From Escherichia coli (lineage in GTDB: Bacteria; Pseudomonadota; Gammaproteobacteria; Enterobacterales; Enterobacteriaceae): 64,000 bases of DNA. This document shows positions 1 to 62,358 of this stretch, piece after piece (within the stretch, counting starts at the first letter, position 1; the number at the start of each line of letters is the position of its first letter). A program made the translations under genes and the position numbers. The stretch lies in assembly GCF_044647545.1 (NCBI RefSeq), contig NZ_CP172818.1; one strand, written 5' to 3'. The notes under the pieces are model-generated. The model had not been told where the DNA came from, did not search any database, and saw only the letters and a list, made by a program, of their open reading frames with translations.

Positions 1-1182
1 TTTACCGCCATCGTGCTGTTTACCCTCGGTTCGCTGTTTTGCGCACTTTCCGCCACGTTAAACGAACTGTTGCTTGCTCGCGCGTTACAGGGCGTTGGCG
101 GCGCGATGATGGTGCCGGTCGGCAGGTTAACAGTGATGAAAATTGTTCCGCGTGAGCAATATATGGCGGCGATGACCTTTGTTACGCTGCCCGGTCAGGT
201 CGGCCCACTATTGGGTCCGGCGCTCGGCGGCCTGCTGGTGGAATACGCGTCCTGGCACTGGATCTTTTTGATCAACATACCGGTAGGGATTATCGGTGCG
301 ATTGCCACGCTGATGTTAATGCCAAACTACACCATGCAGACGCGGCGTTTCGATCTCTCCGGTTTTTTGTTGCTGGCGGTCGGCATGGCGGTATTAACGC
401 TGGCGCTGGATGGCAGTAAAGGCACGGGACTTTCACCGCTGGCGATTGCCGGACTGGCAGCGATTGGCGTGGTGGCACTGGTGCTTTATCTGCTGCACGC
501 CAGAAATAACAACCGCGCCCTGTTCAGCCTGAAACTGTTCCGCACCCGTACCTTTTCGCTGGGCCTGGCGGGGAGCTTTGCCGGACGTATCGGCAGTGGC
601 ATGTTGCCCTTTATGACACCGGTTTTCTTACAGATTGGCCTCGGTTTCTCGCCGTTCCATGCCGGACTGATGATGATCCCGATGGTGCTCGGCAGCATGG
701 GAATGAAGCGAATTGTAGTGCAGGTGGTGAATCGCTTTGGCTACCGTCGGGTACTGGTGGCGACCACGCTGGGCCTGTCGCTGGTCACCCTGCTGTTTAT
801 GACTACCGCGCTGCTGGGCTGGTACTATGTTTTGCCGTTCGTCCTGTTTTTACAAGGGATGGTCAACTCGACGCGTTTCTCCTCCATGAACACCCTGACG
901 CTGAAAGATCTCCCGGACAATCTGGCGAGCAGCGGCAACAGCCTGCTATCGATGATTATGCAATTGTCGATGAGTATCGGCGTCACTATCGCCGGGCTGT
1001 TGCTGGGACTTTTTGGTTCACAGCATGTCAGCGTCGACAGCGGCACCACACAAACCGTCTTTATGTACACCTGGCTTAGCATGGCGTTTATCATCGCCCT
1101 TCCGGCGTTCATCTTTGCCAGAGTGTCGAACGATACGCATCAAAATGTCGCTATTTCGCGGCGAAAAAGGAGCGCGCAATGA
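1..1182 (+). CDS. mdtD: MFS efflux transporter MdtD (YegB), 3' portion; 5' end lies outside the window
   Basis: ORF 13..1182 is hydrophobic with multiple TM segments; recognised as MdtD; immediately upstream of baeSR as in the mdtABCD-baeSR operon; stop overlaps baeS start. Confidence 0.85.
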
Positions 1183-3855: not shown

Positions 3856-4550
<695 letters not shown>

Positions 4551-6015: not shown

Positions 6016-6099
6016 TTAATTTCGATTATTTTTCCCGGATGGAAAATTCTTAGAAACCGATCACATACAGCTGCATTTATTAAGGTTATCATCCGTTTC

Positions 6100-6190
6100 G
6101 CTGAAAAACATAACCCATAAAATGCTAGCTGTACCAGGAACCACCTCCTTAGCCTGTGTAATCTCCCTTACACACACGGGCTTATTTTTT
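6100..6190 (+). ncRNA. cyaR: Hfq-dependent, CRP-activated small RNA CyaR (RyeE)
   Basis: Near-exact match to remembered CyaR sequence (GCTGAAAAACATAACCCATAAAATGCTAGCTGTACCAGGAACCACCTCCTTAGCCTGTGTAATCTCCCTTACAC...GGGCTTATTTTTT) ending in hairpin plus U-tract; located just after yegQ as expected. Confidence 0.85.
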
Positions 6191-22334: not shown

Positions 22335-22455
22335 CCTGCCATAACGTGAAGAAGCAATGACCTGGTGGTCCGTGACTTCCCTACGCTGGCATTATCCAGA
22401 TCAGGTGATACGGGTATTTCTCAGCCTTCACGCAGAAGGGCACCCCGAGTCGTTT
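22335..22455 (-). promoter_or_regulatory. TPP (THI-box) riboswitch in thiMD 5' UTR
   Basis: Minus-strand sequence GGGGTGCCCTTCTGCGTGAAGGCTGAGAAATACCCGTATCACCTGATCTGGATAATGCCAGCGTAGGGAAGTCACGG matches the remembered E. coli thiM aptamer, including the CUGAGA motif. Confidence 0.85.
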
Positions 22456-22548
22456 GGTTGCGATAATAAATCGCAGAGGAGGATGGTAATGTCCAGCGCA
22501 CGCGTTGTAAACGGGGAAAAACGGCGGTATTACAATAACGTTGTGAAA

Positions 22549-25418: not shown

Positions 25419-25433
25419 AGAACCACCTGACTA

Positions 25434-27928
25434 TTACTGGCAAATATAATTTCTACTTTCATCAATCTCTTTACCGAAGGTGATTGTGCATGAAAGTCCT
25501 TGTTGCTTATCAATTGCTACATTAACCGATGGCGGTACTTCATTGGTGCGAATAAATAACTGGCTTCCCTGGCCGACAACACCAATATTATGACCATGGA
25601 TATCATTGACTTCATAACCAAACGTTAATGGTTGCCCATCCGCTCTTAACGCTTTTATAAACCATGGCTTGCGCTGATCGGTATCAAAATTAACCAGTAC
25701 AACCGCGCCGCGATAAGGGGCGGCAATTTTCCGGTTGCCACGTAATTCTGCTTCGCTATCGCTTTGCGACACATCCAGCATCAGGTGATTTTCCCGATAA
25801 GGTGTCATTCCGTCGTATACCACCACTCCATTACGGTTTGTTGTGCGATATTTTTGCCCATTGACATAAGCATCTTTAATTCCTGGCGCATTCATTACAG
25901 CAAACGTTTCGGAAAGACGGTTCGCCAGATTAACGCCACCCGACCAGGCGACAATGCCCCCTGAAACACTGGCTCCAGCCTGTCGATAAGTACTCGACTG
26001 ACTATAACTGCCATTCACCGTTGCCACCGGCGCGTTCCAGGTTAAATTAGCTCCAGCTGTCGTTTCATTTCCCTGATGCTGATGACTCAGGTTGACCCCA
26101 TAGTTAAATTGATCCCGGCTTCCAACGGTTCCCGATAATCCCGTATTATTTGAGGCAAAACCCTGATCATCAAACGTCGTTGAGTTAGACATATATATTT
26201 GCCGACGAGGCGTCGTAGCGTCATCACCCCAATCAAAGGGAATCGATATAAAAATATTAAAACGTTTCTCTTCATGATGATTCTCGTCATAAGCCTGGCT
26301 TGCCGCGAGGGTATAGCTTATCCGTCGCAGGTTGTTGGAATAACTCAACTGATAATCCTTACTGCTGCCGCTACGCCCCCAGTAATCTCGCCATAACGTA
26401 CTTAAGGACACAGAACCCCAGCCTTCTGGCAATGACTGGCTCATATTGGCAGAAAAGCTATTTTTACGGCCAAAATCGTTCTGGTAATAATCGGCAATGT
26501 CATAGATATCGTTTTCATCACGGCGATATTTATCTTTATTGTTTGCCCAAACGTGATCGTTAAATGTCCGGTAATCACGCGACGAATAACGCCAGGCCGC
26601 CAGACCAAAACGCGTCGACGTTTGGCTCACAAATTTGTTGTAGGCAATTTGATAACTTTGCCCGTCAAACACATCGCCGTTGTCTTGTTTACTATGCGAC
26701 TTCGTGGCATCGACGGAAATGGCACCAATGCGTGTATTCCAGCCAGTCCCCAAAGTGAACGCGTAATAATTATTCGCGACCATCGATCCGCCATACAGCG
26801 TCAATAAGTTATTAAAACCATACTGATAACCCGCCTGAACAAAATCACTTTGTTTGCTCGCCCCTTCAATATGGCTACGACCTGCCGCAAAATCATATTT
26901 CGACACGCCGGGTTGCAGCATATTCGGCACCGCTGCATAAGGCACCAGATAGGTGGTTACCGAACCGTCCGCCTCTTTCACGCTGACATCAAGATCTGCT
27001 CCACCACCGGCCAACTGCAAATCTGTAATCGCAAACGGGCCAGGAGGAACCTCTTTCTGATAAACCACAAAACCGTTCTGTTCAATAGTTACCAGCGCGT
27101 TACTCTGAGCAATCCCCTGCACCCGTGGAGTAAAATTTTGTTTCGAGTTAGGCAACATCTGCATATCACGAAACAACCGCACACCGCTGAAGCGAACAGA
27201 ATCAAAAATATCGCTTGATGTGTACATATCACCCACGCGAAGCGTGCCGAGAAGTTGGGCAAATCCACGTTCCAGATACAGGGTATTGCTTTTCCACACC
27301 CCTGGATTGCTATTTGTTTTACTGAAACTGGCATCAGAATGCAGTTGCCACCCCAGTAAGTTTAACCCGCTGTTAAAACGTACATATGTACTCTTGCTAT
27401 TACCCGACGCTTTATAGTCGCTGTAATACTGACTCACATAATAAGAGGTATAAAACGCATTAATACCCCGCTCCCAGTTTTCCGGTGGAACATAGCCACT
27501 TTCCAGTTCTTCCACCCACGCCTGCGGGACACTGAAATCGAGACGAAAAACTCCGATATCCCAGGTATAGCTCCCCCCTGAACAAGTTGCTCAAATGTTA
27601 AACATTGCTTACCGCTGGCAAAGTTATCGGTATTAATGCCTAACCGCTTGATAATTTCCCTTGATATACATGTTTCTTGCAGGTTGTCTTTAACAATAAT
27701 CTCATATTTCCCGCGCCATTGCTTATTGACATAAATATCGATGTCATACTGCCCCGGCAAGGGTTGATTATCATCAAGACGAATATTTGCAACCTGCTGG
27801 TCTTTCATTCCACCTATCATAAAATGGGTATCAAAGGTTTCTTCAGCTGCATAAGCTTCAATGCCGAGCAATAACGCTACGATTGCTGATGCAAGTGGGG
27901 TCATTCTCAACATAGGCAGCTCCTGCAA
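25434..27928 (-). pseudogene. yehB: Outer-membrane fimbrial usher YehB, disrupted by a single-base frameshift in a homopolymer (or sequencing error)
   Basis: Two ORFs in different frames (27434..27928 N-terminal fragment, 25434..27515 remainder); frame switches at C6 run 27573-27578 (minus-strand G6); restoring one G gives continuous ...FEQLVQGG-SYTWDIGVFRLDFSVPQAWVEELESGY... Confidence 0.8.
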
Positions 27929-29803: not shown

Positions 29804-30065
29804 TGAACGTTATCCCTGTAGTAAAGGTTATGCCTGGATAGAATGAGTGCATAACAAACTATAGCTGTACATCCACTACACAGCCACGAAGGATGATAAT
29901 GAAGCATTGCCTGTACGATCAATCGACTTTATAGAGTTTCGGACGAAGGTCCGCAGAATATTTGCAGCATTAAATAAGTGTTCATTAATGCGGCAAAAAC
30001 AAATACACCGCATCAATGTAACATCTCTGCGGTGTATGAAAAGCAACCAAAAAGGTTAATACGCG

Positions 30066-31175
30066 TTAGACCGCGCGGAAGGAAATCTCGCCAGGAATGA
30101 CTTCTCCCTGCCAATAAAGCTGGGCTGCAACGCGGTCAGCCAGCTGGCGGTAGATAGCGGTAAATTCGCTCTCCGGACGGCTGATAACCGTTGGCGTGCC
30201 TTTATCGAGATCTTCACGTAAGGAGATGTGTAACGGCATCTGCCCCAGCAACTGCGTGTGGTATTTCTCGGCCAGTTTCTCTGCACCACCGGTACCGAAA
30301 ATCGGTTCATGGTGACCACAGTTACTGCAAATATGCACACTCATGTTCTCGACAATACCGAGCACCGGAACCTCGACTTTCTCGAACATCACAATGCCTT
30401 TTTTCGCATCGATCAACGCAATGTCCTGCGGGGTGGTGACCACTACCGCGCCAGTTACTGGAATGTTTTGTGCCAGTGTCAATTGAATGTCACCAGTGCC
30501 TGGCGGCATATCAAGCACCAGATAGTCGAGATCCGGCCACAAGGTTTCCTGCAACATTTGCATTAACGCCTTGCTCGCCATCGGACCACGCCACACCATC
30601 GCATTGTCGTCAGTGACCAGATAACCAATTGAATTGGTTGCAAGGCCATGAGACATAATCGGTGCCATGTGGGTACCGTCCGGCGAAGTTGGACGCTGAT
30701 TTTCTGCACCCAGCATGGTGGGTATTGATGGGCCGTAGATATCGGCGTCCAGAATGCCGACTTTCGCCCCTTCCGCCGCGAGTGCCAACGCCAGGTTTAC
30801 CGCCGTGGAAGATTTACCCACGCCGCCTTTACCGGAACTGACCGCAATGATGTTCTTCACGCCATTAATACCCGGCTGATTCTTCACGCGTTTTAAGGTG
30901 GCGATATTGTGCGACAGTTTCCAGTCGATAGCTTTCGCCCCGGTGATACGAAGCAGTTCGGCGCTACATTGCTCTTTTAACTCTTCGAACGCGCTATGCC
31001 AGACGAATGGCATAACCAGTTCCACATGCAACGTGTCGTCCATCCAGGCGACATGGTGCAACGCTTTCAGCGTGGTGAGGTTATGCTTCAGGGTTGGGTG
31101 CTGAAAATTGGCCAGTGTCCCGGCGACCATTGCGCGCAAGGCTTCTGGTGATTTGGCCTGGGATTGTTCGTTCAT
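30066..31175 (-). CDS. mrp: Fe-S cluster carrier ATPase Mrp/ApbC
   Basis: 369 aa from MNEQSQAKSPEALRAM; deviant Walker A (SGKGGVGKSS), C-terminal CxxC; divergent from metG. Confidence 0.92.
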   Translation of the reverse strand: MNEQSQAKSPEALRAMVAGTLANFQHPTLKHNLTTLKALHHVAWMDDTLHVELVMPFVWHSAFEELKEQCSAELLRITGAKAIDWKLSHNIATLKRVKNQPGINGVKNIIAVSSGKGGVGKSSTAVNLALALAAEGAKVGILDADIYGPSIPTMLGAENQRPTSPDGTHMAPIMSHGLATNSIGYLVTDDNAMVWRGPMASKALMQMLQETLWPDLDYLVLDMPPGTGDIQLTLAQNIPVTGAVVVTTPQDIALIDAKKGIVMFEKVEVPVLGIVENMSVHICSNCGHHEPIFGTGGAEKLAEKYHTQLLGQMPLHISLREDLDKGTPTVISRPESEFTAIYRQLADRVAAQLYWQGEVIPGEISFRAV

Positions 31176-31306
31176 CCCGACTCCTTTTTTGTATAGATAA
31201 ACCATCAGCTGATAGTTTACCTGAAGAATATAGAGAAGTACTTACTTAACATTTTCCCATTTGGTACTATCTAACCCCTTTTCACTATTAAGAAGTAATG
31301 CCTACT

Positions 31307-33340
31307 ATGACTCAAGTCGCGAAGAAAATTCTGGTGACGTGCGCACTGCCGTACGCTAACGGCTCAATCCACCTCGGCCATATGCTGGAGCACATCCAGG
31401 CTGATGTCTGGGTCCGTTACCAGCGAATGCGCGGCCACGAGGTCAACTTCATCTGCGCCGACGATGCCCACGGTACACCGATCATGCTGAAAGCTCAGCA
31501 GCTCGGTATCACCCCGGAGCAGATGATTGGCGAAATGAGTCAGGAGCATCAGACTGATTTCGCAGGCTTTAACATCAGCTATGACAACTATCACTCGACG
31601 CACAGTGAAGAGAACCGCCAGTTGTCAGAACTTATCTACTCTCGCCTGAAAGAAAACGGTTTTATTAAAAACCGCACTATTTCTCAGCTGTACGATCCGG
31701 AAAAAGGCATGTTCCTGCCGGACCGTTTTGTGAAAGGCACCTGCCCGAAATGTAAATCCCCGGATCAATACGGCGATAACTGCGAAGTCTGCGGCGCGAC
31801 CTACAGCCCGACTGAATTGATCGAGCCGAAATCGGTGGTTTCTGGCGCTACGCCGGTAATGCGTGATTCTGAACACTTCTTCTTTGATCTGCCCTCTTTC
31901 AGCGAAATGTTGCAGGCATGGACCCGCAGCGGTGCGTTGCAGGAGCAGGTGGCAAATAAAATGCAGGAGTGGTTTGAATCCGGCCTGCAACAGTGGGATA
32001 TCTCCCGCGACGCGCCGTACTTCGGTTTTGAAATTCCGAACGCGCCGGGTAAATATTTCTACGTCTGGCTGGATGCGCCGATTGGCTATATGGGTTCTTT
32101 CAAGAATCTGTGCGACAAGCGCGGCGACAGCGTAAGCTTCGATGAATACTGGAAGAAAGACTCCACCGCCGAGCTGTACCACTTCATCGGTAAAGATATT
32201 GTTTACTTCCACAGCCTGTTCTGGCCAGCAATGCTGGAAGGCAGCAACTTCCGCAAGCCGACCAACCTGTTTGTTCATGGCTATGTGACGGTGAACGGCG
32301 CGAAGATGTCTAAGTCTCGCGGTACCTTTATTAAGGCCAGCACCTGGCTGAATCATTTTGACGCCGACAGCCTGCGTTACTACTACACTGCGAAACTCTC
32401 TTCGCGCATTGATGATATCGATCTCAACCTGGAAGATTTCGTTCAGCGCGTGAATGCCGATATCGTTAACAAAGTGGTTAACCTGGCCTCTCGTAATGCG
32501 GGCTTTATCAACAAGCGTTTTGACGGCGTGCTGGCAAGCGAACTGGCTGACCCGCAGTTGTACAAAACCTTCACTGATGCCGCTGAAGTGATTGGTGAAG
32601 CGTGGGAAAGCCGCGAATTTGGTAAAGCAGTACGCGAAATCATGGCGCTGGCTGATCTGGCTAACCGCTATGTCGATGAACAGGCTCCGTGGGTGGTGGC
32701 AAAACAGGAAGGCCGCGATGCCGACCTGCAGGCAATTTGCTCAATGGGCATAAACCTGTTCCGCGTGCTGATGACTTACCTGAAGCCGGTACTGCCGAAA
32801 CTGACCGAGCGCGCAGAAGCATTCCTCAATACAGAACTGACCTGGGATGGTATCCAGCAACCGCTGCTGGGCCACAAAGTGAATCCGTTCAAAGCGCTGT
32901 ATAACCGCATCGATATGAAGCAGGTTGAAGCACTGGTGGAAGCGTCTAAAGAAGAAGTGAAAGCAGCTGCCGCGCCAATTACTGGCCCACTGGCAGATGA
33001 TCCGATTCAGGAAACCATCACCTTTGACGACTTCGCCAAAGTTGACCTGCGCGTGGCGCTGATCGAAAACGCAGAGTTTGTTGAAGGTTCTGACAAACTG
33101 CTGCGCCTGACGCTGGATCTCGGCGGTGAAAAACGCAATGTCTTCTCCGGCATTCGTTCTGCTTACCCGGATCCGCAGGCACTGATTGGTCGTCACACCA
33201 TTATGGTGGCTAACCTGGCACCACGTAAAATGCGCTTCGGTATCTCCGAAGGCATGGTGATGGCTGCCGGTCCTGGCGGGAAAGATATCTTCCTGCTAAG
33301 CCCGGATGCTGGTGCTAAACCGGGTCATCAGGTGAAATAA
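31307..33340 (+). CDS. metG: Methionyl-tRNA synthetase
   Basis: 677 aa from [28 protein letters not shown] (HIGH motif), KMSKS present, Zn knuckle CPKC...CEVC, C-terminal tRNA-binding domain. Confidence 0.95.
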
Positions 33341-33348
33341 TCCCCCTT

Positions 33349-33380
33349 CAAGGCGCTGCATCGACAGCGCCTTTTCTTTA
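33349..33380 (+). terminator. Rho-independent terminator of metG
   Basis: AAGGCGCTG-CATCGAC-AGCGCCTT hairpin followed by TTCTTTA. Confidence 0.7.
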
Positions 33381-33480
33381 TAAATTCCTAAAGTTGTTTT
33401 CTTGCGATTTTGTCTCTCTCTAACCCGCATAAATACTGGTAGCATCAGCATTCAACTGGATAAAATTACAGGGATGCAGA

Positions 33481-36400
33481 ATGAAACACTTTATCTATCA
33501 GGACGAAAAATCACATAAATTCTGGGCGGTGGAGCAGCAGGGAAACGAGTTGCATATCTGTTGGGGAAAAGTTGGCACCAAAGGGCAAAACCAGGTAAAA
33601 AGTTTTGCGGATGCTGCGGCGGCGGAAAAAGCGGAGCTGAAGCTGATTGCGGAGAAGGTGAAGAAGGGATATGTGGAGCAAGCGAAGGATAATTCTTTGC
33701 AACCTTCCCAAACGGTAACGGACTCTCTCAAGGTAGCGGACTTATCCACCATTATTCAGGAACAACCCTCTTTCGTAGCAGAAACCCGTGCGGCTGACAA
33801 AAATACAGACGTTATTTTACCGTGGCTGGCAAAAGATATTGCTGTCGTTTTTCCGCTTGAAGTCGTACCCACCACCTTAAGCCATCGCCGCTTTCCCGGA
33901 GATCCTGTTACACCTGTAGATAAATTAACCCAGTTACGTCGCTTAGCCTGTGGCGTGTCGCAACGGGATAACAAAACAGCTACATTTGACTTCAGCGCCT
34001 GTACTTTAGAGTGGCAAAACTTCATCGCTCAGGCGATCGATCTGATTAACAGCCCGAAAACGACAAAATTACCATCACCGGTAATGGCTGTACTCGCGGC
34101 ACTTGAACTGCACTGTACGAGATATAAAGAGCGTGAGGATGTTATGGATCAGATTATTCAGGAAGGCGGTCTGGAATATGCTACTGATGTAATAATACAT
34201 CTTCAACAAATATCTATTGAATGGGATTATGTCAACAATAATATTGTTTTCCTGTCGTCTGGCATTTCACCTGATTACTTGCAGCAATATTCCAGCTTTG
34301 AATTACGCCTACGTAAACATTTATCACTGGCGGAAGAGTCTCTCTGGCAAAAATGTGCACAAAAACTTATTGCCGCAGTTCCACATATTCCAGAATGGCG
34401 GCAACCATTAATTGCTTTGTTATTACCCGAAAAACCAGAAATTGCACATGAAATTGCCCAGCGTCTACTGGGGCAAAAGAAATTACCCTCGCTTGAGTGG
34501 CTAAAAATAGTGGCGACTGATGAGCACATTCTTGCCTCATTAGAAAAATATCACGAGCCATATGCCATTTTTGATGATTACTATTGTGGTGCGATATGGT
34601 CAGCCACCGTATTACAGGAGCAAGGTGTTGCAGCCCTGCCCCGATTTGCACCCTATGTCGCAAGTGACTACTGCGCCGATGTGTTGAGTCATATCAATCA
34701 TCCGTTCGCATTAACACTGCTTATACGTGTAGCCGGGCATACTAAACGCTGTCACGATCGAATGACGAAAGCCTGCGCTGCGTTCCCACACGCAGCACTG
34801 GCAGCACTGGCGGAACTTCTAGTGCAAAAAGAAGAGAATAGTTGGCGCATTATGCTAATGACGATGCTTATCTCGCAACCTACACTAGCAGAACAGGTCA
34901 TTCCCTGGCTTTCGACACCCGCAGTTGCAGTGCTGAAATCATGCCAGCAACAACTGAAACAGCCCTCAAACCATGCCAGTGCCGATCTACTGCCGGCCAT
35001 AGTAGTCTCCCCACCATGGCTTTCGAAAAAGAAAAAATCGCCGATTCCGGTGCTTGATTTAGCACCGCTCAACCTCGAATCCATATGCACAATAACCGAC
35101 ACAGAAGCTAAAGAGTTTCAAACTCATTGGGACTGGGAACCGCATAAGCCAGGTGAAGGTGCTAAAGATTTCCTTTACTCGCTGGGGTATCGCCGCTGGG
35201 ATTTTGACACATATAAATATATCGGCGCTTCTGACTCGGCAATTGACGCATGGGAACGTGAGGACTTCGCTACACTCATCCAAATGTTTAAAGCCCACCA
35301 TGCACCGTATCAGGGGGAGTGGCATCTCAACTCACTTCCCTTTTTACCTATGCAAAAAGCGATTAAACTATGGGAATTTCTCAGCAAAGAGCCGCATACC
35401 GCGGTAAAACCTGTCATGCTTTATTTGCGACTGGCAGGTATGAGTGGTTTTCTACACTCGTTTTCACGCTACCCTCAAGAAGGTTTTGCGGTTGCTAATT
35501 ATTTTGCCGCAACGGAACTGGCTCCTGCCGTCGCCCGCGCCTTTAACAAACTCAAAACTCTACGACAAGACGCCCGCACCTGGCTGCTGAAATATCCGGA
35601 ACATGCCATTACCGGCCTGTTGCCTGCGGCACTCGGCAAAGCCGGTGAATCCCAGGATAACGCCCGTGCCGCTTTACGTATGTTGATTGAAAATGGTTAT
35701 CCGTCATTACTGCAAGAAATCGCCCAGCGTTATAACCAGCCGGAAGTAACCGATGCGGTGAACGCTCTACTTGCGCTCGATCCCTTAGATAATCACCCGA
35801 CTAAAATCCCGACACTTCCGGCCTTTTATCAGCCATCGCTCTGGACGCGCCCGGTATTAAAAGCAAACGCCCAATCACTGCCAGATAGCGCCCTCTTCCA
35901 CCTCGGTGAAATGCTCCGCTTCCCTCAGGAAGATACGCTGTATCCGGGGTTATTACAGGTGAAAGACGCCTGTACTGCCGACTCACTGGCTGAGTTTGCC
36001 TGGGATCTGTTTACCGCCTGGCAGACCGCTGGCGTGCCGTCGAAAGAGAGCTGGGCGTTCACTGCATTAGGTGTTCTTGGCAACGGTGACACCGCCCGCA
36101 AACTGACGCCATTAATCCGCGCCTGGCCTGGCGAATCTCAGCATAAACGTGCCACCGTTGGGTTGGATATTCTCGCTGCTATCGGCAGCGATATCGCCCT
36201 GATGCAGCTTAACGGCATCGCCCAGAAACTGAAATTCAAAGCCTTACAGGAGCGGGCGAAAGAAAAAATTGCCGACATTGCCGAAAGTCGCGAACTCACA
36301 GTGGCAGAACTTGAAGATCGGTTAGCACCGGATCTCGGTCTGGATGATAACGGTTCGCTGCTGCTGGATTTCGGGCCACGGCAGTTCACCGTCAGCTTTG

Positions 36401-37269
36401 ATGAAACCTTAAAACCGTTTGTGCGTGATGCTTCCGGCAGCCGCCTGAAAGACTTGCCTAAACCGAACAAAAGCGATGATGAAACCCAAGCGAACGATGC
36501 AGTTAACCGCTACAAACTGTTGAAAAAAGATGCGCGTACCGTTGCCGCCCAGCAGGTAGCAAGGCTGGAATCCGCCATGTGCCTACGCCGCCACTGGTCG
36601 CCGGAAAACTTCCAGCTATTCCTGGTTGAGCATCCGCTGGTTCGCCACTTAACCCGCCGTCTGATTTGGGGCGTTTATAGCACCGAAAACGAGCTACTGG
36701 CCTGTTTCCGGGTGGCAGAAGATAACAGCTACAGCACCGCTGACGATGATCTTTTCACCCTGCCGGAAGGCGATATCTCTATTGGTATTCCTCACGTTCT
36801 GGAAATATCACCGACGGATGCCGCCGCCTTTGGTCAGCTTTTTGCCGACTACGAACTTTTACCGCCGTTCCGTCAGCTCGACCGCAACAGTTATGCCCTG
36901 ACTGAAGTCGAACGCAACGCCAGCGAACTAACCCGCTGGGCAGGCAGAAAATGCCCGAGCGGTCGGGTTATGGGGCTGTCGAATAAAGGCTGGGTGCGTG
37001 GTGAACCGCAGGACGGTGGCTGGATCGGCTGGATGATCAAACCTCTGGGCCGCTGGTCATTAATCATGGAAATCGATGAAGGATTTGCAGTTGGTATGTC
37101 GCCAGCCGAACTCAGTGCCGAGCAACTCTTAAGCAAGCTGTGGCTATGGGAAGGCAAAGCAGAAAGCTATGGCTGGGGGAGTCATTCAACACAGGAAGCG
37201 CAGTTCTCCGCACTCGATGACATCACCGCCAGCGAGTTGATTAACGATATTGAAGCCCTGTTTGAATAA
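33481..37269 (+). CDS. molR: Giant WGR-domain + DUF4132 protein MolR (intact form of the K-12 molR/yehG-yehH pseudogene)
   Basis: 1262 aa single ORF; N-terminal WGR-like segment (HKFWAVEQQGNELHICWGKVGTKGQ); remainder collinear with yehI. Confidence 0.85.
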   Translation: MKHFIYQDEKSHKFWAVEQQGNELHICWGKVGTKGQNQVKSFADAAAAEKAELKLIAEKVKKGYVEQAKDNSLQPSQTVTDSLKVADLSTIIQEQPSFVAETRAADKNTDVILPWLAKDIAVVFPLEVVPTTLSHRRFPGDPVTPVDKLTQLRRLACGVSQRDNKTATFDFSACTLEWQNFIAQAIDLINSPKTTKLPSPVMAVLAALELHCTRYKEREDVMDQIIQEGGLEYATDVIIHLQQISIEWDYVNNNIVFLSSGISPDYLQQYSSFELRLRKHLSLAEESLWQKCAQKLIAAVPHIPEWRQPLIALLLPEKPEIAHEIAQRLLGQKKLPSLEWLKIVATDEHILASLEKYHEPYAIFDDYYCGAIWSATVLQEQGVAALPRFAPYVASDYCADVLSHINHPFALTLLIRVAGHTKRCHDRMTKACAAFPHAALAALAELLVQKEENSWRIMLMTMLISQPTLAEQVIPWLSTPAVAVLKSCQQQLKQPSNHASADLLPAIVVSPPWLSKKKKSPIPVLDLAPLNLESICTITDTEAKEFQTHWDWEPHKPGEGAKDFLYSLGYRRWDFDTYKYIGASDSAIDAWEREDFATLIQMFKAHHAPYQGEWHLNSLPFLPMQKAIKLWEFLSKEPHTAVKPVMLYLRLAGMSGFLHSFSRYPQEGFAVANYFAATELAPAVARAFNKLKTLRQDARTWLLKYPEHAITGLLPAALGKAGESQDNARAALRMLIENGYPSLLQEIAQRYNQPEVTDAVNALLALDPLDNHPTKIPTLPAFYQPSLWTRPVLKANAQSLPDSALFHLGEMLRFPQEDTLYPGLLQVKDACTADSLAEFAWDLFTAWQTAGVPSKESWAFTALGVLGNGDTARKLTPLIRAWPGESQHKRATVGLDILAAIGSDIALMQLNGIAQKLKFKALQERAKEKIADIAESRELTVAELEDRLAPDLGLDDNGSLLLDFGPRQFTVSFDETLKPFVRDASGSRLKDLPKPNKSDDETQANDAVNRYKLLKKDARTVAAQQVARLESAMCLRRHWSPENFQLFLVEHPLVRHLTRRLIWGVYSTENELLACFRVAEDNSYSTADDDLFTLPEGDISIGIPHVLEISPTDAAAFGQLFADYELLPPFRQLDRNSYALTEVERNASELTRWAGRKCPSGRVMGLSNKGWVRGEPQDGGWIGWMIKPLGRWSLIMEIDEGFAVGMSPAELSAEQLLSKLWLWEGKAESYGWGSHSTQEAQFSALDDITASELINDIEALFE

Positions 37270-37278
37270 GGAAAGAAC

Positions 37279-40200
37279 ATGGACAAGGAATTACCGTGGC
37301 TGGCGGATAACGCCCAACTGGAACTGAAATATAAAAAAGGCAAAACACCACTCAGCCATCGCAATTGGCCGGGCGAACCGGTGCCTGTTATCACTGAAAA
37401 CCTCATCCAGACACTGGGTGATAAATTGCTACACATTGCTGAGAAGAAAAAAAACATTGTCTGGCGTTATGAAAATTTTTCACTGGAATGGCAGTCCGCC
37501 ATCACGCAGGCCATCAACTTGATCGGCGAGCACAAACCCTCAATTCCGGCCCGGACAATGGCGGCGCTAGCCTGTATCGCGCAAAATGATAGCCAACAGT
37601 TACTCGACGAAATCGTCCAACAAGAGGGACTGGAATATGCGACTGAAGTGGTGATTGCACGCCAGTTTATTGTACGGTGTTATGAGAGTGATCCTCTGGT
37701 AGTAACATTGCAGTATCAGAAGGAGGACTATGGCTATGGCTATGGCTATGGTTATCGCTCAGAAACCTATAACGAATTCGATCTCCGACTGCGTAAGCAT
37801 CTCTCTCTGGCAGAGGAAAGCTGCTGGCAGCGTTGCGCCGACAAACTCATTGCCGCACTGCCAGGACTACCCCAAGTTCGCCGTCCTTTTATTGCACTCA
37901 TCCTCCCGGAAAAACCAGAAATCGCCAATGAGTTGGTAGGCCTTGAATGCCCGTGGACTCATTTTCATTCTAAGGAGTGGTTAAAAGTTGTTGCTACTGA
38001 CCACAGGGCAGTGGGAAAACTCGAACGCTACTGGAGCCAGGATATATTTAGCGATCGCGAAGCCAGCTACATGTCGCATGAAAACCACTTCGGCTACGCG
38101 GCCTGCGCCGCCCTTTTGCGCGAACAAGGAATTGCAGCCGTTCCACGCCTCGCGATGTATGCCCATAAAGAAGATTGCGGTAGCCTGCTGGTAAAAATTA
38201 ACCATCCGCAGGTCATCCGCACCCTGCTGTTAGTTGCTGATAAAAACAAACCCAGCCTGCAACGTGTGGCTAAATACAGTAAAAACTTCCCCCATGCGAC
38301 GCTTGCCGCACTGGCAGAGCTTCTGGCGTTAAAAGAACCGCCTGCACGCCCTGGTTATCCAATCATCGAAGACAAAAAGCTGCCTGCACAGCAAAAAGCT
38401 CGAGATGAATACTGGCGTACGCTGTTACAAACGCTGATGGCATCGCAGCCACAACTGGCAGAAGAGGTGATGCCGTGGTTAAGTACTCAAGCCCAGGCAG
38501 TGCTGGATAGTTATTTATCGGCACCGCCCAAAACGGTTATTGATAGCACCGATAACATCCAAATGCCTGAAATCCTCGTTTCACCACCGTGGCGTAGTAA
38601 GAAAAAAATGACAGTTCCACGTCTTGATTTGGCACCGTTCGAATTAACGCCGCAAGTTTACTGGCAACCAGGCGAACGAGAGAGGCTTGCCGCCACTGAG
38701 TCTGCCCGTTATTTCAGCACGGAATCTCTTGCGGAACGCATGGAACAAAAAAGTGGACGAGTTGTATTACAGGAGCTGGGTTTTGGAGATGATGTATGGC
38801 TGTTTTTGAATTATATACTCCCCGGAAAACTGGATGCTGCACGCAATTCACTCATTGTTCAGTGGCATTACTACCCAGGGCGGGTTGAAGAGATCATGAA
38901 TGGCTGGAGCTCCCCGGAAGCTCAATTAGCAGAACAGGCGCTTCGCAACGGTCACGTAGAAGTGTTAATTAACATATGGGAAAATGACAGCTACTCACGC
39001 TATCGTCGGGAAAAGAGTATCTGGAACCTGTATTTATTGGCGCAGTTGCCGCGTGAGATGGCTTTGACTTTCTGGCTACGTATCAATGAGAAAAAGCATC
39101 TGTCTGCGGGAGAGGACTATTTTCTCAGTATCTTCGGATTGGATGCTCTACCAGGTCTGCTGTTGGCTTTTTCACATCGTCCAAAAGAAACATTTCCATT
39201 AATTTTAAATTTCGGCGCAACAGAACTGGCCCTGCCCGTTGCCCGCGTCTGGCGACGTTTCGCGGCGCAGCGTGATCTGGCTCGCCAGTGGATTTTACAT
39301 TGGTCGGAACATACAGCTACTGCACTTATCCCTCTTGTCTTCACCAAATCCAGCGATAATAGCGAAGCTGCATTACTTGCCCTGCGTTTACTTTACGAAC
39401 AGGGACATGGCGAGTTACTGCAAACCGTGGCAAACCGCTGGCAGCGTACAGATGTATGGCCTGCCCTGGAGCAATTACTTAAACAGAGTCCAATAGAGAT
39501 TTACCCGACACGCATTCCAAAAGCCCCTGATTTCTGGCAGCCGGCAATGTGGTCCAGACCGAGACTTATCACGAATAATCAACCTGTTACTGATGATGCT
39601 CTGGAAATTATCGGCGAAATGCTGCGCTTTACCCAGGGCGGACGTTTTTATTGTGGGCTGGAACAACTGAAAACGTTCTGCCAGCCACAAACGCTGGCCG
39701 CTTTTGCCTGGGATCTCTTTACCGCGTGGCAACAAGTTGGCGCCCCCGCAAAAGACAACTGGGCATTTCTGGCGTTAAGTCTCTTCGGTGACGAAAGCAC
39801 GGCTCGGGATCTGACAACACAGATCCTCGCCTGGCCACAGGAAGGCAAATCTGCCCGTGCCGTCAGTGGCCTGAACATACTTACCCTGATGAATAATGAT
39901 ATGGCGCTGATACAGCTGCATCATATATCGCAACGGGCGAAATCCCGTCCCTTACGTGATAACGCGGCGGAATTTCTTCAGGTGGTCGCAGAAAATCGTG
40001 GACTAAGCCAGGAAGAGTTAGCGGACAGATTAGTCCCAACACTGGGCCTGGATGATCCGCAGGCGTTGATATTTGATTTTGGTCCCCGGCAGTTTACCGT
40101 TCGCTTCGATGAAAACCTCAACCCGGTTATCTTTGATCAGCAAAACGTTCGCCAGAAAAGCATTCCCCGGTTGCGCGCCGATGACGATCAGCTGAAAGCG

Positions 40201-40923
40201 CCCGAGGCTCTGGCCCGACTTAAAGGGCTAAAAAAAGATGCCACTCAGGTGAGCAAAAACCTGCTCCCGCGTCTTGAAACAGCCCTACGCACCACCCGAC
40301 GCTGGTCGCTGGCAGATTTTCATTCTCTGTTTGTTAATCATCCCTTTACCCGTCTGGTTACCCAGCGATTAATATGGGCGGTTTATCCAGCAAATGAACC
40401 GCGTCGTTTACTCAACGCCTTTCGTGTGGCCGCAGAGGGGGAATTCTGCAACGCACAAGATGAGCCAATTGACCTGCCTGCCGATGCCCTGATTGGCATT
40501 GCCCACCCGTTAGAAATGACAGCAGAAATGCGCAGTGAATTTGCACAGCTTTTTGCCGATTACGAAATTATGCCGCCTTTTCGCCAGTTGACGCGGCGCA
40601 CAGTGCTGCTCACGCCTGACGAGTCAGCCAGTAATAGTTTGAATCGCTGGGAAGGTAAATCTGCTACCGTTGGGCAACTTATGGGAATGCGATACAAAGG
40701 CTGGGAGTCAGGCTATGAGAACGCATTTGTCTATGACCTGGGCGAGTACCGGCTGGTCCTTAAGTTTTCATCCGGTTTTAACCACTACAATGTTGATAGC
40801 AAAGCGCTAATGAGCTTCCGTTCTCTTCATGTATACCGTGACAATAAATCTGTCACTTTTGCCGAACTTGATGTGTTTGATTTGAGTGAAGCGTTAAGCG
40901 CACCCGACGTCATTTTCCATTAA
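37279..40923 (+). CDS. yehI: Giant DUF4132 protein YehI, tandem paralog of MolR lacking the WGR domain
   Basis: 1214 aa; long collinear similarity to MolR (DLRLRKHLSLAEES.WQ.CA.KLIAA.P ... FPHA.LAALAELL ... FGPRQFTV.FDE); internal GYGYGYGY repeat. Confidence 0.85.
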   Translation: MDKELPWLADNAQLELKYKKGKTPLSHRNWPGEPVPVITENLIQTLGDKLLHIAEKKKNIVWRYENFSLEWQSAITQAINLIGEHKPSIPARTMAALACIAQNDSQQLLDEIVQQEGLEYATEVVIARQFIVRCYESDPLVVTLQYQKEDYGYGYGYGYRSETYNEFDLRLRKHLSLAEESCWQRCADKLIAALPGLPQVRRPFIALILPEKPEIANELVGLECPWTHFHSKEWLKVVATDHRAVGKLERYWSQDIFSDREASYMSHENHFGYAACAALLREQGIAAVPRLAMYAHKEDCGSLLVKINHPQVIRTLLLVADKNKPSLQRVAKYSKNFPHATLAALAELLALKEPPARPGYPIIEDKKLPAQQKARDEYWRTLLQTLMASQPQLAEEVMPWLSTQAQAVLDSYLSAPPKTVIDSTDNIQMPEILVSPPWRSKKKMTVPRLDLAPFELTPQVYWQPGERERLAATESARYFSTESLAERMEQKSGRVVLQELGFGDDVWLFLNYILPGKLDAARNSLIVQWHYYPGRVEEIMNGWSSPEAQLAEQALRNGHVEVLINIWENDSYSRYRREKSIWNLYLLAQLPREMALTFWLRINEKKHLSAGEDYFLSIFGLDALPGLLLAFSHRPKETFPLILNFGATELALPVARVWRRFAAQRDLARQWILHWSEHTATALIPLVFTKSSDNSEAALLALRLLYEQGHGELLQTVANRWQRTDVWPALEQLLKQSPIEIYPTRIPKAPDFWQPAMWSRPRLITNNQPVTDDALEIIGEMLRFTQGGRFYCGLEQLKTFCQPQTLAAFAWDLFTAWQQVGAPAKDNWAFLALSLFGDESTARDLTTQILAWPQEGKSARAVSGLNILTLMNNDMALIQLHHISQRAKSRPLRDNAAEFLQVVAENRGLSQEELADRLVPTLGLDDPQALIFDFGPRQFTVRFDENLNPVIFDQQNVRQKSIPRLRADDDQLKAPEALARLKGLKKDATQVSKNLLPRLETALRTTRRWSLADFHSLFVNHPFTRLVTQRLIWAVYPANEPRRLLNAFRVAAEGEFCNAQDEPIDLPADALIGIAHPLEMTAEMRSEFAQLFADYEIMPPFRQLTRRTVLLTPDESASNSLNRWEGKSATVGQLMGMRYKGWESGYENAFVYDLGEYRLVLKFSSGFNHYNVDSKALMSFRSLHVYRDNKSVTFAELDVFDLSEALSAPDVIFH

Positions 40924-40983
40924 AACACAGCGGGCAGTGATGCGACTGCCCGTTATTAACACGACCTGCCACCGGGGGAAGCG

Positions 40984-41304
40984 ATGATCGTGCAAAAAGA
41001 GCTGGTCACTATTTACGATTATGAGGCCCCTGTACCTGAAGAGCCGTTTTCCTTCAGACTTGAGATCCATAAATGCTCTGAATTATTTACAGGTTCCATC
41101 TACCGGCTGGAGCGATTCCGGCTACATCCAACATTTCATCAACGTGATCGAGAGGATATCGACCCGCTAATAAATGATGCGTTGATTTATATAAGAGATG
41201 AGTTTATTGATGAGCGAAAATTACGGGGCGAATCACCAGAAACGGTAATAGCCATTTTTAATCGTGAACTACAGAATATATTCAACCAAGAAATAGAAAA
41301 ATAG
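40984..41304 (+). CDS. yehK: Small uncharacterized protein YehK
   Basis: 106 aa; no recognisable domain; AT-rich codon usage unlike neighbours; hairpin terminator immediately downstream (~41309-41336). Confidence 0.7.
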   Translation: MIVQKELVTIYDYEAPVPEEPFSFRLEIHKCSELFTGSIYRLERFRLHPTFHQRDREDIDPLINDALIYIRDEFIDERKLRGESPETVIAIFNRELQNIFNQEIEK

Positions 41305-41469
41305 CTTTATTAAAGGGGGAAACGGTATTCCCCTTTAGATGTGTTTTATTTTCCCGTTACTCAAAAAAATAAATAAACCGAAAAAAAGCCACTAATAGCT
41401 CCAGTACGGAAATAAGCAGGGTTAATTTTTTGTCAGTGTGTCCATCCCTTCTCTTTATAAAGGAGGGCA

Positions 41470-41560
41470 ACACCACTTTTTACCTACCCCCCCCTTTATT
41501 TTTTTTATTCGAACCATTTCCCCCCCGAAGGCCCCCCCCCCCCCCCCCCAACCCTTGAAA
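41470..41560. other. Anomalous low-complexity stretch with poly-C (17 nt), poly-T and C-rich runs; probable sequencing/assembly artefact
   Basis: Direct reading: ...tacctacccccccctttattttttttattcgaaccatttcccccccgaaggcccccccccccccccccaaccc...; same character as the 3856-4550 anomaly. Confidence 0.55.
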
Positions 41561-41704
41561 TGGGTTCGATCCGGCGCAACGTCCCAACAGTCAGGATTAT
41601 AAATCTCATTATCTTAATTGCAACGGGGTCCACCGATGGTTATAATTCGTTCGTTGGAACACGATGTTGCACAGGCCGTGGTGTTAGGCCTGAAAGTAGT
41701 AAAT

Positions 41705-41738
41705 AAAAGAACCTGCCTCACCAGCAGGTTTTTTTATT
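41705..41738 (+). terminator. Rho-independent terminator-like hairpin upstream of yehL
   Basis: AACCTGC-CTCACCA-GCAGGTT followed by T7; ~110 bp upstream of yehL start. Confidence 0.55.
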
Positions 41739-41846
41739 TACTGTGATCTGTTTCCCAGATATTTTCCGCTCAAACAACTAATGCGCCAAACATTTATTGC
41801 GCGTAAAATATCGTTTATTTCATTAATACATTTCAGGGATGAATAT

Positions 41847-42935
41847 ATGTCACCGCAGAATAATCATCTGCAGCGTCCGCCTGTCGCTGTGTTATACGCC
41901 GATGAACTGGCAAAATTAAAACAAAATGATCACGCACCTTGCCCGCCCGGTTGGCAGTTAAGTTTGCCTGCGGCCCGTGCTTTTATCCTTGGCGATAGCG
42001 CGCAAAATATTAGCCGTAAAGTGGTGATTAGTCCCTCCGCTGTCGAACGCATGTTAGTCACTCTTGCCACCGGGCGCGGTTTGATGTTGGTGGGGGAACC
42101 TGGCACCGCAAAATCTCTCCTGTCTGAATTACTGGCAACCGCTATTAGCGGCGATGCCGGGTTAACCATCCAGGGCGGCGCATCTACCACTGAAGATCAA
42201 ATCAAGTACGGCTGGAACTACGCTCTGCTTATCAACCATGGTCCGTCAACGGAAGCACTGGTCCCTGCCCCGCTTTACCAGGGAATGCGCGACGGCAAAA
42301 TCGTCCGTTTTGAAGAGATAACGCGTACACCGCTGGAAGTACAAGACTGTCTGTTAGGTATGCTTTCTGACAGGGTAATGACGGTGCCGGAACTCACTGG
42401 TGAAGCCAGTCAGCTCTATGCGCGAGAAGGCTTTAATATTATTGCCACTGCCAATACCCGCGATCGCGGCGTCAATGAAATGAGCGCTGCGCTAAAGCGT
42501 CGATTCGATTTTGAAACGGTCTTTCCGATTATGGATTTCGCCCAGGAACTGGAACTGGTCGCCAGTGCTTCGGCGCGTTTATTGGCCCATAGTGGCATTC
42601 CGCATAAAGTGCCTGACGCGGTACTGGAGTTACTGGTACGCACCTTCCGCGATCTGCGTGCCAACGGCGAAAAGAAAACGTCAATGGATACACTGACAGC
42701 GATTATGTCCACCGCTGAAGCCGTGAACGTAGCCCACGCTGTGGGTGTCCGCGCCTGGTTTTTAGCGAATCGCGCAGGTGAGCCAGCCGATCTGGTGGAC
42801 TGTATTGCCGGAACCATCGTTAAAGATAACGAAGAAGATCGCGCTCGTCTGCGCCGTTACTTCGAACAGCGTGTCGCCACACATAAAGAAGCTCACTGGC
42901 AGGCTTATTATCAAGCCCGCCACCGCCTGCCGTGA
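41847..42935 (+). CDS. yehL: MoxR-family AAA+ ATPase YehL
   Basis: 362 aa from MSPQNNHLQRPP; Walker A LVGEPGTAKS; Walker B region IVRFEEITRTPLEVQDCLLGML; MoxR-like C-terminal helical region. Confidence 0.88.
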   Translation: MSPQNNHLQRPPVAVLYADELAKLKQNDHAPCPPGWQLSLPAARAFILGDSAQNISRKVVISPSAVERMLVTLATGRGLMLVGEPGTAKSLLSELLATAISGDAGLTIQGGASTTEDQIKYGWNYALLINHGPSTEALVPAPLYQGMRDGKIVRFEEITRTPLEVQDCLLGMLSDRVMTVPELTGEASQLYAREGFNIIATANTRDRGVNEMSAALKRRFDFETVFPIMDFAQELELVASASARLLAHSGIPHKVPDAVLELLVRTFRDLRANGEKKTSMDTLTAIMSTAEAVNVAHAVGVRAWFLANRAGEPADLVDCIAGTIVKDNEEDRARLRRYFEQRVATHKEAHWQAYYQARHRLP

Positions 42936-62185: not shown

Positions 62186-62358
62186 GATGAGCATTCAGAT
62201 AGTGGTTCACGCGCACGGGTTGCGCACCGCCGGAGTAAGGATTTACTGAGGCTAGCGACGCCATCATAACGAGCAAAAAGTGCGATCGTCAAAGGAGAAT
62301 CGTGAGGAAATGCTGCATTGCTGACATTTACGCCAGCAATGCAACTCAAAAGAACTTT

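What the first reader, a model, noticed from the sequence alone, without database searches (positions are those of the whole stretch)
41440..41700. Second anomalous homopolymer-rich stretch in the yehK-yehL intergenic region
Contains poly-C (17 nt), C7 and T8 runs, the same character as the 3856-4550 anomaly, followed by ~140 bp of sequence I cannot place (…gggttcgatccggcgcaacgtcccaacagtcagg…gaacacgatgttgcacaggccgtggtgttaggcctgaaagtag). The spacer is ~540 bp versus ~300 bp as I recall in K-12. Most likely an artefact, but it sits at the promoter-proximal side of yehLMPQ, so a real indel would affect the system's regulation.
Basis: seen in the sequence. Interest (0 to 1): 0.45.

Follow-up and report, generated by a model that had tools for sequence, protein, structure and literature searches.

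The report
Garbled copy of zor-orz toxin locus
The homopolymer-rich stretch is almost certainly a local sequencing or assembly error laid over an ordinary, already described small toxin-antitoxin locus (zor-orz) that most E. coli carry between yehK and yehL, so there is no new biology here.

Summary
The runs are real in the text of the window: C18, C8, C7, T8 and two A7, against a maximum of 8 in the other 63 kb. They belong to a 220-nt block, 41334-41553, that is a degraded rendering of normal E. coli sequence. The window is otherwise nearly identical to ST648-like genomes such as FDAARGOS_497, with 0 differences over the 22,447 nt downstream and 100% identity over the 11.3 kb upstream. Inside the block, identity falls stepwise from 0.97 to 0.47 and then jumps back to 1.0. 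Of 45 substitutions, 40 copy a neighbouring base. G is halved and 33 nt are lost. No public genome or metagenome reproduces the tract.

What truly lies there is the known type I toxin-antitoxin locus zor-orz:
- the Orz antitoxin sRNA, intact (41653-41735; Rfam OrzO-P, 98.9 bits);
- back-to-back promoters sharing a palindromic -35, intact;
- the first 35 nt of the zor mRNA, intact;
- the rest of the 174-nt 5' UTR, the 29-aa toxin ORF and the terminator stem, all garbled.

K-12 is shorter (306 nt against 542 nt) because it lacks zor, not because of the artefact. The other anomaly (3906-4544) is the same kind of garbling, over a parDE toxin-antitoxin operon. That coincidence is unexplained.

The parts
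40984..41304 (+). yehK coding sequence (left flank), intact
   Evidence: ORF; annotated yehK in relatives; 100% identical to at least 15 genomes.
41310..41338 (.). Hairpin between the convergent yehK and zor genes, a likely bidirectional terminator. The first base error (41334, C->T) falls in its right arm.
   Evidence: Terminator-like site; first difference from the reference at 41334.
41334..41553 (.). The garbled block: 220 nt standing in for 253 nt of normal sequence (FDAARGOS_497 L003 42084-42336). It holds all the long homopolymer runs (A7, A7, C8, T8, C7, C18).
   Evidence: Identity ramps from 0.97 to 0.47 and then jumps to 1.0 at 41554. 40 of 45 substitutions copy an adjacent base (p = 2e-6). 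33 nt net loss. G count falls from 53 to 27. The most garbled core still resembles the reference (z = 3.2, 0 of 1000 shuffles reach it).
41357..41445 (-). Remnant of the zor toxin ORF. The ATG is at 41445-41443 and the original stop at 41359-41357. It is 89 nt instead of 90 and reads MDTLTKN* as written. The relative encodes MDTLTQKLTVLIAVLELLVALLRLIDLLK.
   Evidence: Translations; alignment; ZorO variants T3S (ZorP) and A20S (ZorQ) as described in PMC11264685.
41446..41553 (-). Garbled part of the zor 5' UTR (mRNA positions about +36 to +174). The Orz pairing site (+83..+102 in the relative) and the EAP region are unrecognisable. The Shine-Dalgarno region is altered.
   Evidence: The published anatomy is a 174-nt UTR, EAP at +73..+102 and RBS at +164..+169 (PMC5397157).
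41554..41588 (-). Intact first ~35 nt of the zor mRNA. The TSS is inferred at 41588, 7-8 nt after the -10 box, which gives the published 174-nt UTR in the relative.
   Evidence: 100% identity to many genomes; TSS inference.
41596..41623 (-). zor promoter: -35 TTGCAA (41623-41618), 16-nt spacer, -10 TATAAT (41601-41596).
   Evidence: 10 of 12 matches to consensus.
41618..41646 (+). orz promoter: -35 TTGCAA (41618-41623; the same palindromic hexamer serves both promoters), 17-nt spacer, -10 TATAAT (41641-41646).
   Evidence: 10 of 12 matches to consensus.
41653..41735 (+). Orz antitoxin sRNA gene, intact. V1 triplet ACG lies at 41661-41663, which is the OrzP type. The intrinsic terminator lies at 41709-41735.
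   Evidence: Rfam RF02083 OrzO-P, 98.9 bits against a gathering score of 60, at 41660-41735. The 5' end at 41653 is inferred from V1 = +9..+11 (PMC3919570) and from the -10 position. Terminator.
41847..42935 (+). yehL coding sequence (right flank), intact. Its upstream 41736-41846 is identical to relatives.

Best explanation
Window 41334-41553 is a base-calling or assembly artefact. It is a low-quality, homopolymer-smeared rendering of the normal E. coli sequence, not a real insertion, deletion or repeat tract.

The DNA that really lies between yehK and yehL in this strain is a single-copy zor-orz type I toxin-antitoxin locus. A 29-aa hydrophobic toxin (Zor) is transcribed leftward with a 174-nt structured 5' UTR. 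An ~83-nt antitoxin sRNA (Orz) is transcribed rightward from a back-to-back promoter. The 5' end of Orz pairs with +83..+102 of the toxin mRNA to block its translation and trigger RNase III cleavage; that mechanism is taken from the literature.

Shown here:
- the identity of orz and of both promoters;
- near-identity of the window to clean relatives everywhere else;
- the non-biological error signature;
- the absence of the tract from other public sequence.

Inferred:
- that the strain's true sequence equals that of its relatives;
- the cause of the errors. A consensus built from one or a few decaying reads running left to right and joined abruptly to good sequence fits best. The platform cannot be determined.
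For: 1. Flanks are identical to relatives. 30000-41330 is 100.0% identical to at least 15 complete genomes. 41554-64000 shows 0 differences over 22,447 nt against FDAARGOS_497. Apart from one fimbrial allele, the whole 64 kb has only about 6 other small differences.
2. Inside the block there are 45 substitutions and 33 deleted bases in 220-253 nt. Identity ramps 0.97, 0.78, 0.88, 0.82, 0.72, 0.50, 0.47 and then returns to 1.0 abruptly.
3. The error signature is not evolutionary. 40 of 45 substitutions convert a base into its neighbour (p = 2e-6). Only 14 of 45 are transitions. G is halved.
4. The worst part is still significantly similar to the reference, with the C18 run sitting where the relative has the C-rich CACCACCCGTCCGGTAGCC. 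It is therefore a degraded copy, not foreign DNA.
5. The natural 253-nt segment occurs in 3399 of 5426 complete genomes, and all but one matching record are at least 90% identical. No genome covers 80% or more of 41440-41660. A garbled 23-mer is absent from genome contigs and metagenome contigs.
6. The same signature, more extreme (G27, A28), occurs at 3906-4544 over parDE. A C6-versus-C7 homopolymer indel splits yehB at 27572.
7. Locus identity. Rfam OrzO-P scores 98.9 bits. The promoters were found. The relative's toxin peptide, UTR length, RBS and pairing-site positions match PMC3919570 and PMC5397157.
Against: No reads, quality values or assembly metadata are available, so 'artefact' rests on comparative evidence only. 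Both garbled blocks in the window coincide with its only two toxin-antitoxin loci, which a purely random technical failure does not predict. That hints at a cause linked to the loci themselves, although the cause may still be technical, for example toxin genes that are refractory to cloning. The source assembly was not found in the RefSeq complete-genome set, so its method is unknown.
Confidence: 0.9

Rival explanations
1. The artefact is real as an artefact, but it is caused by the biology of the loci. Toxin genes (zor, parE) are under-represented or unclonable in a clone-based or otherwise biased library. These spots would then be covered only by low-quality read tails or a single gap-closing read, which was kept in the consensus. 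This is a sub-hypothesis about cause and is compatible with the best explanation.
For: Both garbled blocks fall on the only two toxin-antitoxin loci in the window. ParD/ParE is the only annotated TA pair among 61 features. Orz is the only antitoxin sRNA found. The rough chance of two random blocks doing this is of the order of 1e-3 or less, from 1.2 kb of TA sequence in 64 kb (my estimate). Good sequence resumes 6 nt before the parE stop and inside the zor 5' UTR upstream of the toxin ORF, as expected if viable fragments must exclude the toxin. zor is not annotated in RefSeq records, so a link through annotation keywords cannot explain the coincidence. That toxic genes cause gaps in shotgun clone coverage is established knowledge (Sorek 2007, Kimelman 2012, Sberro 2013; cited from memory and not retrieved here; PMC4148067 alludes to it).
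Against: n = 2. An intact parDE operon with its antitoxin is normally clonable. ST648-like genomes are mostly from the clone-free NGS era. The homopolymer indel in yehB suggests a long-read or flow-based platform rather than Sanger shotgun. No reads were available to test coverage.
Confidence: 0.25
2. The sequence is correct: this strain carries a heavily mutated, pseudogenised zor toxin gene and 5' UTR, as real decay or targeted hypermutation of the toxin after loss of selection.
For: As written the toxin ORF is frameshifted (MDTLTKN*) and the antitoxin pairing site is gone, while orz is intact. That is superficially like the natural 'orz-only' state found in more than 30% of E. coli (PMC11264685; K-12).
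Against: A strain with 0 differences in the adjacent 22 kb cannot have accumulated about 80 changes in 220 nt by ordinary mutation. The changes copy neighbouring bases, are transversion-rich and ramp directionally. Natural orz-only strains have a clean deletion, not a smear. None of 3399 genomes shows an intermediate. An identical signature destroys parDE 37 kb away.
Confidence: 0.03
3. The poly-C and poly-T tracts are a genuine simple-sequence contingency locus, or a real indel, that modulates expression of yehLMPQ.
For: Long C or T tracts upstream of operons act as phase-variation switches in some bacteria (general knowledge). The tract lies in the intergenic region upstream of yehL.
Against: No other E. 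coli genome has any such tract here. The tract is about 300 nt from the yehL ATG and is separated from it by the orz gene and its terminator. It aligns position for position with ordinary C-rich sequence in relatives. E. coli does not normally maintain runs longer than 8-10 nt, and the maximum in the rest of the window is 8.
Confidence: 0.01

Closest known systems
zorO-orzO / zorP-orzP type I toxin-antitoxin loci of E. coli O157:H7 EDL933 (Fozo 2010; Wen 2014, PMC3919570; Wen 2017, PMC5397157; PMC11264685)
   Same: The Orz sRNA matches Rfam RF02083 at 98.9 bits. The arrangement is divergent, with back-to-back sigma-70 promoters. In the nearest clean relative there is a 29-aa toxin with T3 and A20 (the ZorO protein variant), a 174-nt 5' UTR, an RBS at +163..169 and an Orz pairing site at +83..+102. 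The chromosomal position between yehK and yehL is the same as in the duplicated O111/O157-type loci.
   Different: The locus is single-copy here, whereas it is a tandem pair in EDL933/O111-type strains. The sRNA has the OrzP-type V1 triplet (ACG) while the toxin peptide is the ZorO variant. Pairing with its own mRNA in the relative is 13 contiguous plus 4 nt with one internal mismatch. In the window as written, the toxin ORF and the pairing site are destroyed, which I attribute to sequence error.
orz-only ('orphan antitoxin') loci, e.g. E. coli K-12 MG1655 (PMC11264685)
   Same: The orz gene, both promoters and the first ~40 nt of the zor transcript are retained, next to yehL.
   Different: K-12 has a clean ~270-nt deletion that removes zor (spacer 306 nt). 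The window keeps the full-length region, but in corrupted form.
tisB-istR1 and shoB-ohsC type I loci
   Same: The antitoxin sRNA is divergently encoded with limited complementarity to a long, processed 5' UTR carrying a standby-like site. This comparison is made in PMC3919570 and PMC5397157.
   Different: The sequences and toxin peptides are unrelated. This is not a membership claim.
Low-quality read-tail or unpolished-consensus artefacts in deposited assemblies
   Same: Errors increase directionally, homopolymers are smeared, there is net base loss, good sequence resumes abruptly, and the pattern recurs elsewhere in the same record.
   Different: The platform and cause could not be established. 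The co-location with two toxin-antitoxin loci is unusual.

Membership tests
zor-orz type I toxin-antitoxin locus | Orz antitoxin sRNA matching Rfam RF02083 (OrzO-P) above the gathering score | tested here: met
   98.9 bits against a gathering score of 60, full-length model 1-76, at window 41660-41735 on the + strand.
zor-orz type I toxin-antitoxin locus | Divergently transcribed 29-aa hydrophobic Zor toxin ORF | tested here: not met
   As written the ORF reads MDTLTKN*. In FDAARGOS_497, which has identical flanks, the ORF is intact: MDTLTQKLTVLIAVLELLVALLRLIDLLK. I attribute the failure to sequence error, so the strain very probably is a member even though the deposited text is not.
zor-orz type I toxin-antitoxin locus | Long (~174 nt) zor 5' UTR carrying a site complementary to the Orz 5' end within the EAP region (+73..+102) | tested here: not met
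   CACGATGTTGCAC occurs only once in the window, inside orz itself. The UTR copy lies in the 31-nt gap of the alignment. In the relative the site lies at +83..+102 with the ATG at +175.
zor-orz type I toxin-antitoxin locus | Back-to-back sigma-70 promoters for zor and orz | tested here: met
   Two sites with 10 of 12 matches, sharing TTGCAA at 41618-41623. 100% identical to relatives.
zor-orz type I toxin-antitoxin locus | Toxicity of Zor on overproduction and rescue by Orz | not testable with these tools
   Experimental; shown for EDL933 zorO-orzO in PMC3919570.
Sequencing or assembly artefact | Absent from otherwise identical relatives and from all other public sequence | tested here: met
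Sequencing or assembly artefact | Non-evolutionary error signature: neighbour-copying substitutions, net deletion, directional ramp, abrupt recovery | tested here: met
   40 of 45 substitutions copy a neighbour (p = 2e-6). 33 deletions and 0 insertions. Identity runs from 0.97 to 0.47 and then to 1.0.
Sequencing or assembly artefact | Recurrence of the same signature elsewhere in the same record | tested here: met
   3906-4544 over parDE. A homopolymer indel in yehB.
Sequencing or assembly artefact | Low coverage or low base quality in the underlying reads | not testable with these tools
   No reads or quality values are available.
Phase-variable simple-sequence contingency locus | Homopolymer tract present, with length variation, at the same site in related strains, and placed within a promoter spacer or the 5' end of a coding sequence | tested here: not met
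   No other genome carries the tract. It lies about 300 nt upstream of yehL, behind orz and its terminator.

The most novel reading that the evidence does not exclude
The garbling is not random. Something physical about toxin-antitoxin loci in this isolate made exactly these two loci unreadable, or the strain really carries hypermutated TA loci. Candidate causes are a DNA modification or lesion, a stable structure, population heterogeneity at TA loci, or targeted mutagenesis that inactivates toxins.
Probability: 0.02. Interest if true: 0.75.

Novelty: not a real feature. Interest (0 to 1): 0.08.

Why it matters
There is little biological significance. The homopolymer tract should not be interpreted as an indel affecting yehLMPQ regulation, and the toxin gene should not be scored as a pseudogene in this strain.

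There are two practical lessons:
1. The 'extra' DNA relative to K-12 is the well-studied zor-orz type I toxin-antitoxin locus, which standard annotation leaves unmarked (no feature in the RefSeq records inspected).
2. This record contains local stretches of garbage that break real genes (zor, parD/parE, probably yehB), so gene-content or pseudogene calls from it need caution.

The one point of mild curiosity is that both garbage blocks sit on toxin-antitoxin loci. If this held genome-wide, it would point to a toxin-linked sequencing bias.

Tried and rejected
- tRNA fragment. The 'GGTTCGATCC' motif at 41565 looks like a tRNA T-arm, but ARAGORN found no tRNA or tmRNA in the window. The stretch is simply the start of the zor 5' UTR, conserved in all E. 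coli.
- Leader or attenuator. Weak Rfam hits to Thr_leader and Trp_leader (25 and 21 bits, below gathering) overlap orz and only reflect its terminator.
- Foreign insertion. Rejected because the most garbled core still aligns significantly with the reference.
- Real allelic divergence by recombination. The window does contain one such case, yehA at 24467-25441. That block looks like normal sequence and matches a common allele at 99.5%, unlike the block in question.
- Identifying the source assembly. No RefSeq complete E. coli genome contains the tract. Exact-pattern scans of genome contigs and metagenome contigs found nothing. These collections are not exhaustive for E. coli isolates, since genome contigs holds one genome per species.
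- Literature on toxic genes causing cloning gaps. The search did not retrieve the key papers, so that point rests on my own knowledge.
- Failed calls. One search failed on a file-name error and was rerun.

Full report
**Observation**

Reading 40800-42300 shows the reported runs. A run-length census gives C18 at 41532-41549, C8 at 41487-41494, C7 at 41520-41526 and T8 at 41499-41506, plus A7 at 41363 and A7 at 41381. Apart from this block and the block at 3906-4544, the ~63 kb window has no run longer than 8 and only 15 runs of 7 or more. The equivalent stretch of the nearest relative has no run longer than 4. yehK ends at 41304 and yehL starts at 41847, so the spacer is 542 nt. It is 306 nt in K-12 MG1655.

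**Where the abnormality starts and ends**

The window is almost identical to ST648-like E. coli genomes:
- 30000-41330 is 100.0% identical to at least 15 complete genomes.
- A BLAST of the whole window against the FDAARGOS_497 region gives 0 differences over 41554-64000 (22,447 nt).
- Only three discordant blocks appear: 3906-4544, 24467-25441 and 41334-41553. There are six other small events.

**Nature of the block**

The block was aligned to the relative.
- It has 45 substitutions, 33 deleted bases and no insertions, so 220 nt stand in for 253 nt.
- Identity in 40-column bins runs 0.97, 0.78, 0.88, 0.82, 0.72, 0.50 and 0.47, then returns abruptly to 1.0.
- 40 of the 45 substitutions turn a base into the identity of an adjacent base. 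At most about 56% would be expected by chance (binomial p = 2e-6).
- Only 14 of 45 substitutions are transitions.
- G falls from 53 to 27.
- The most degraded core (41485-41553) still aligns to the reference better than any of 1000 shuffles (z = 3.2). The C18 run sits where relatives have the C-rich CACCACCCGTCCGGTAGCC.

This is a smeared copy of the normal sequence. It is not foreign DNA, and it is not evolutionary divergence.

The natural 253-nt segment is found in 3399 of 5426 complete genomes, and all but one matching record are at least 90% identical. No genome covers 80% or more of 41440-41660. A 23-mer from the garbled part has no exact match in genome contigs or metagenome contigs.

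**The other anomaly**

3906-4544 shows the same behaviour in a more extreme form. The first errors are single-base deletions. Identity then ramps down to about 0.5, with G27, A28 and A18 runs, and recovers abruptly. Residual similarity to the reference is strong (z = 8.5). This block covers the parD/parE type II toxin-antitoxin operon between yegP and yegQ, starting about 108 nt upstream of the parD ATG. Good sequence resumes 6 nt before the parE stop. A C6-versus-C7 difference at 27572 also splits the usher gene yehB. This record therefore has local sequence-quality problems.

**What is really there**

Rfam places the OrzO-P antitoxin sRNA (RF02083) at 41660-41735 on the + strand, with 98.9 bits against a gathering score of 60.

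The consensus scan finds exactly two promoter-like sites, back to back, sharing the palindromic -35 hexamer TTGCAA at 41618-41623:
- the rightward promoter for orz, with -10 at 41641-41646;
- the leftward promoter for zor, with -10 at 41601-41596.

The literature (PMC3919570) places the V1 specificity triplet at +9..+11 of the sRNA, as GAA in OrzO and ACG in OrzP. The window has ACG at 41661-41663. The sRNA therefore starts at 41653, seven nt after the -10 box, and is of the OrzP type.

In the clean relative the leftward transcript has these features:
- a 174-nt leader if it starts 7-8 nt after its -10 box;
- a Shine-Dalgarno at +163..169;
- the ATG at +175;
- the peptide MDTLTQKLTVLIAVLELLVALLRLIDLLK;
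- a sense copy of the Orz 5' end at +83..+102.

These match the published 174-nt UTR, the RBS at +164..169 and the EAP region at +73..102 where Orz pairs (PMC5397157). The ZorO protein variant is defined by T3 and A20 (PMC11264685).

The locus is thus the known zor-orz type I toxin-antitoxin system, single-copy here and duplicated in O111/O157-type strains. Its mechanism comes from the literature and was not tested here. Orz pairs with the toxin mRNA leader, blocking standby or ribosome loading and triggering RNase III-dependent cleavage. 5' processing (delta-28) activates translation of a small membrane-damaging peptide.

**Consequences for the window as written**

Intact: the orz gene, both promoters and +1..+35 of the zor mRNA. 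Everything from +36 through the toxin ORF to the right arm of the yehK/zor terminator hairpin is corrupted. The ORF reads MDTLTKN* and the Orz pairing site is gone. I attribute this to error, not to pseudogenisation.

**Comparison with K-12**

K-12 keeps orz, the promoters and about 40 nt of the zor leader, but has a clean deletion of about 270 nt that removes zor. This is the 'orz-only' state reported for more than 30% of E. coli genomes (PMC11264685). It is consistent with 3399 of 5426 genomes having the zor segment while 5231 have the promoter segment. The artefact actually shortens the spacer by 33 nt.

**Relation to yehL**

The garbled block ends about 290 nt upstream of the yehL ATG. It is separated from yehL by orz and its strong terminator, and 41554-41846 is identical to relatives. 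There is no basis for an effect on yehLMPQ regulation.

**Unexplained**

Both garbled blocks coincide with the only two toxin-antitoxin loci in the window. ParD/ParE is the only annotated pair among 61 features, and Orz is the only antitoxin RNA. By my rough estimate the chance of this is 1e-3 or less.

A toxin-linked technical bias is a plausible cause, for example unclonable toxin genes leaving only poor read tails or a single gap-closing read. I cite that phenomenon from memory. zor is not annotated in the RefSeq records inspected, so a link through annotation keywords cannot explain the coincidence. With n = 2 and no reads, this cannot be settled.

**Verdict**

The homopolymer-rich stretch is not a real feature (confidence about 0.9). 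The underlying locus is an already known zor-orz toxin-antitoxin system. Interest is low.

Noticed in passing
It lies over a parD/parE type II toxin-antitoxin operon between yegP and yegQ. It runs from about 108 nt upstream of the parD ATG (4014) to 6 nt before the parE stop. Both garbage blocks in the window sit on its only two TA loci.
   Followed up: partly
window 24467-25441: The fimbrial adhesin gene yehA is a completely different allele from that of the otherwise near-identical FDAARGOS_497. It is clean sequence and 99.5% identical to the common allele (e.g. strain EcN_Sk; K-12-derived NEB Turbo at 99.2%). It looks like an ordinary recombinational allele exchange bounded by identical flanks.
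   Followed up: partly
window 27572-27577 (yehB): A C6 run where the relative has C7 splits the fimbrial usher gene yehB into two ORFs (25434-27515 and 27434-27928). This is either a homopolymer-length sequencing error or a real frameshift.
   Followed up: partly
window 6170-6173 (within CyaR sRNA, 6098-6187): An extra ACAC (an (AC)4 repeat instead of (AC)2) lies in the 3' terminator region of the CyaR/RyeE sRNA relative to FDAARGOS_497. It could be repeat slippage or an error.
   Followed up: no
L005 (K-12 MG1655) 8291-8596, aligned to window 41554-41846: K-12 retains an intact-looking orz antitoxin sRNA gene, both promoters and about 40 nt of the zor leader, but no toxin. This is an orphan antitoxin, already reported as 'orz-only' in more than 30% of E. 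coli (PMC11264685). It is unannotated in the RefSeq K-12 record inspected.
   Followed up: partly
window 41618-41623: The divergent zor and orz promoters share a single palindromic -35 hexamer (TTGCAA), so RNA polymerase binding at one promoter should exclude the other. This is a possible built-in competition between toxin and antitoxin transcription.
   Followed up: no
window 41653-41672 versus L003 42270-42289: In this lineage the Orz sRNA (OrzP-type V1) pairs with its own zor leader over 13 contiguous plus 4 nt, with one internal mismatch and a further mismatch at position 2. That is at the published lower limit for repression (17 nt discontinuous), while the toxin peptide is the ZorO variant.
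   Followed up: partly
window 62190-62270 (-) and 22361-22457 (-): Rfam also finds a Peptidase-S11 cis-regulatory RNA upstream of pbpG and the TPP riboswitch upstream of thiM. Both are expected for this region.
   Followed up: no
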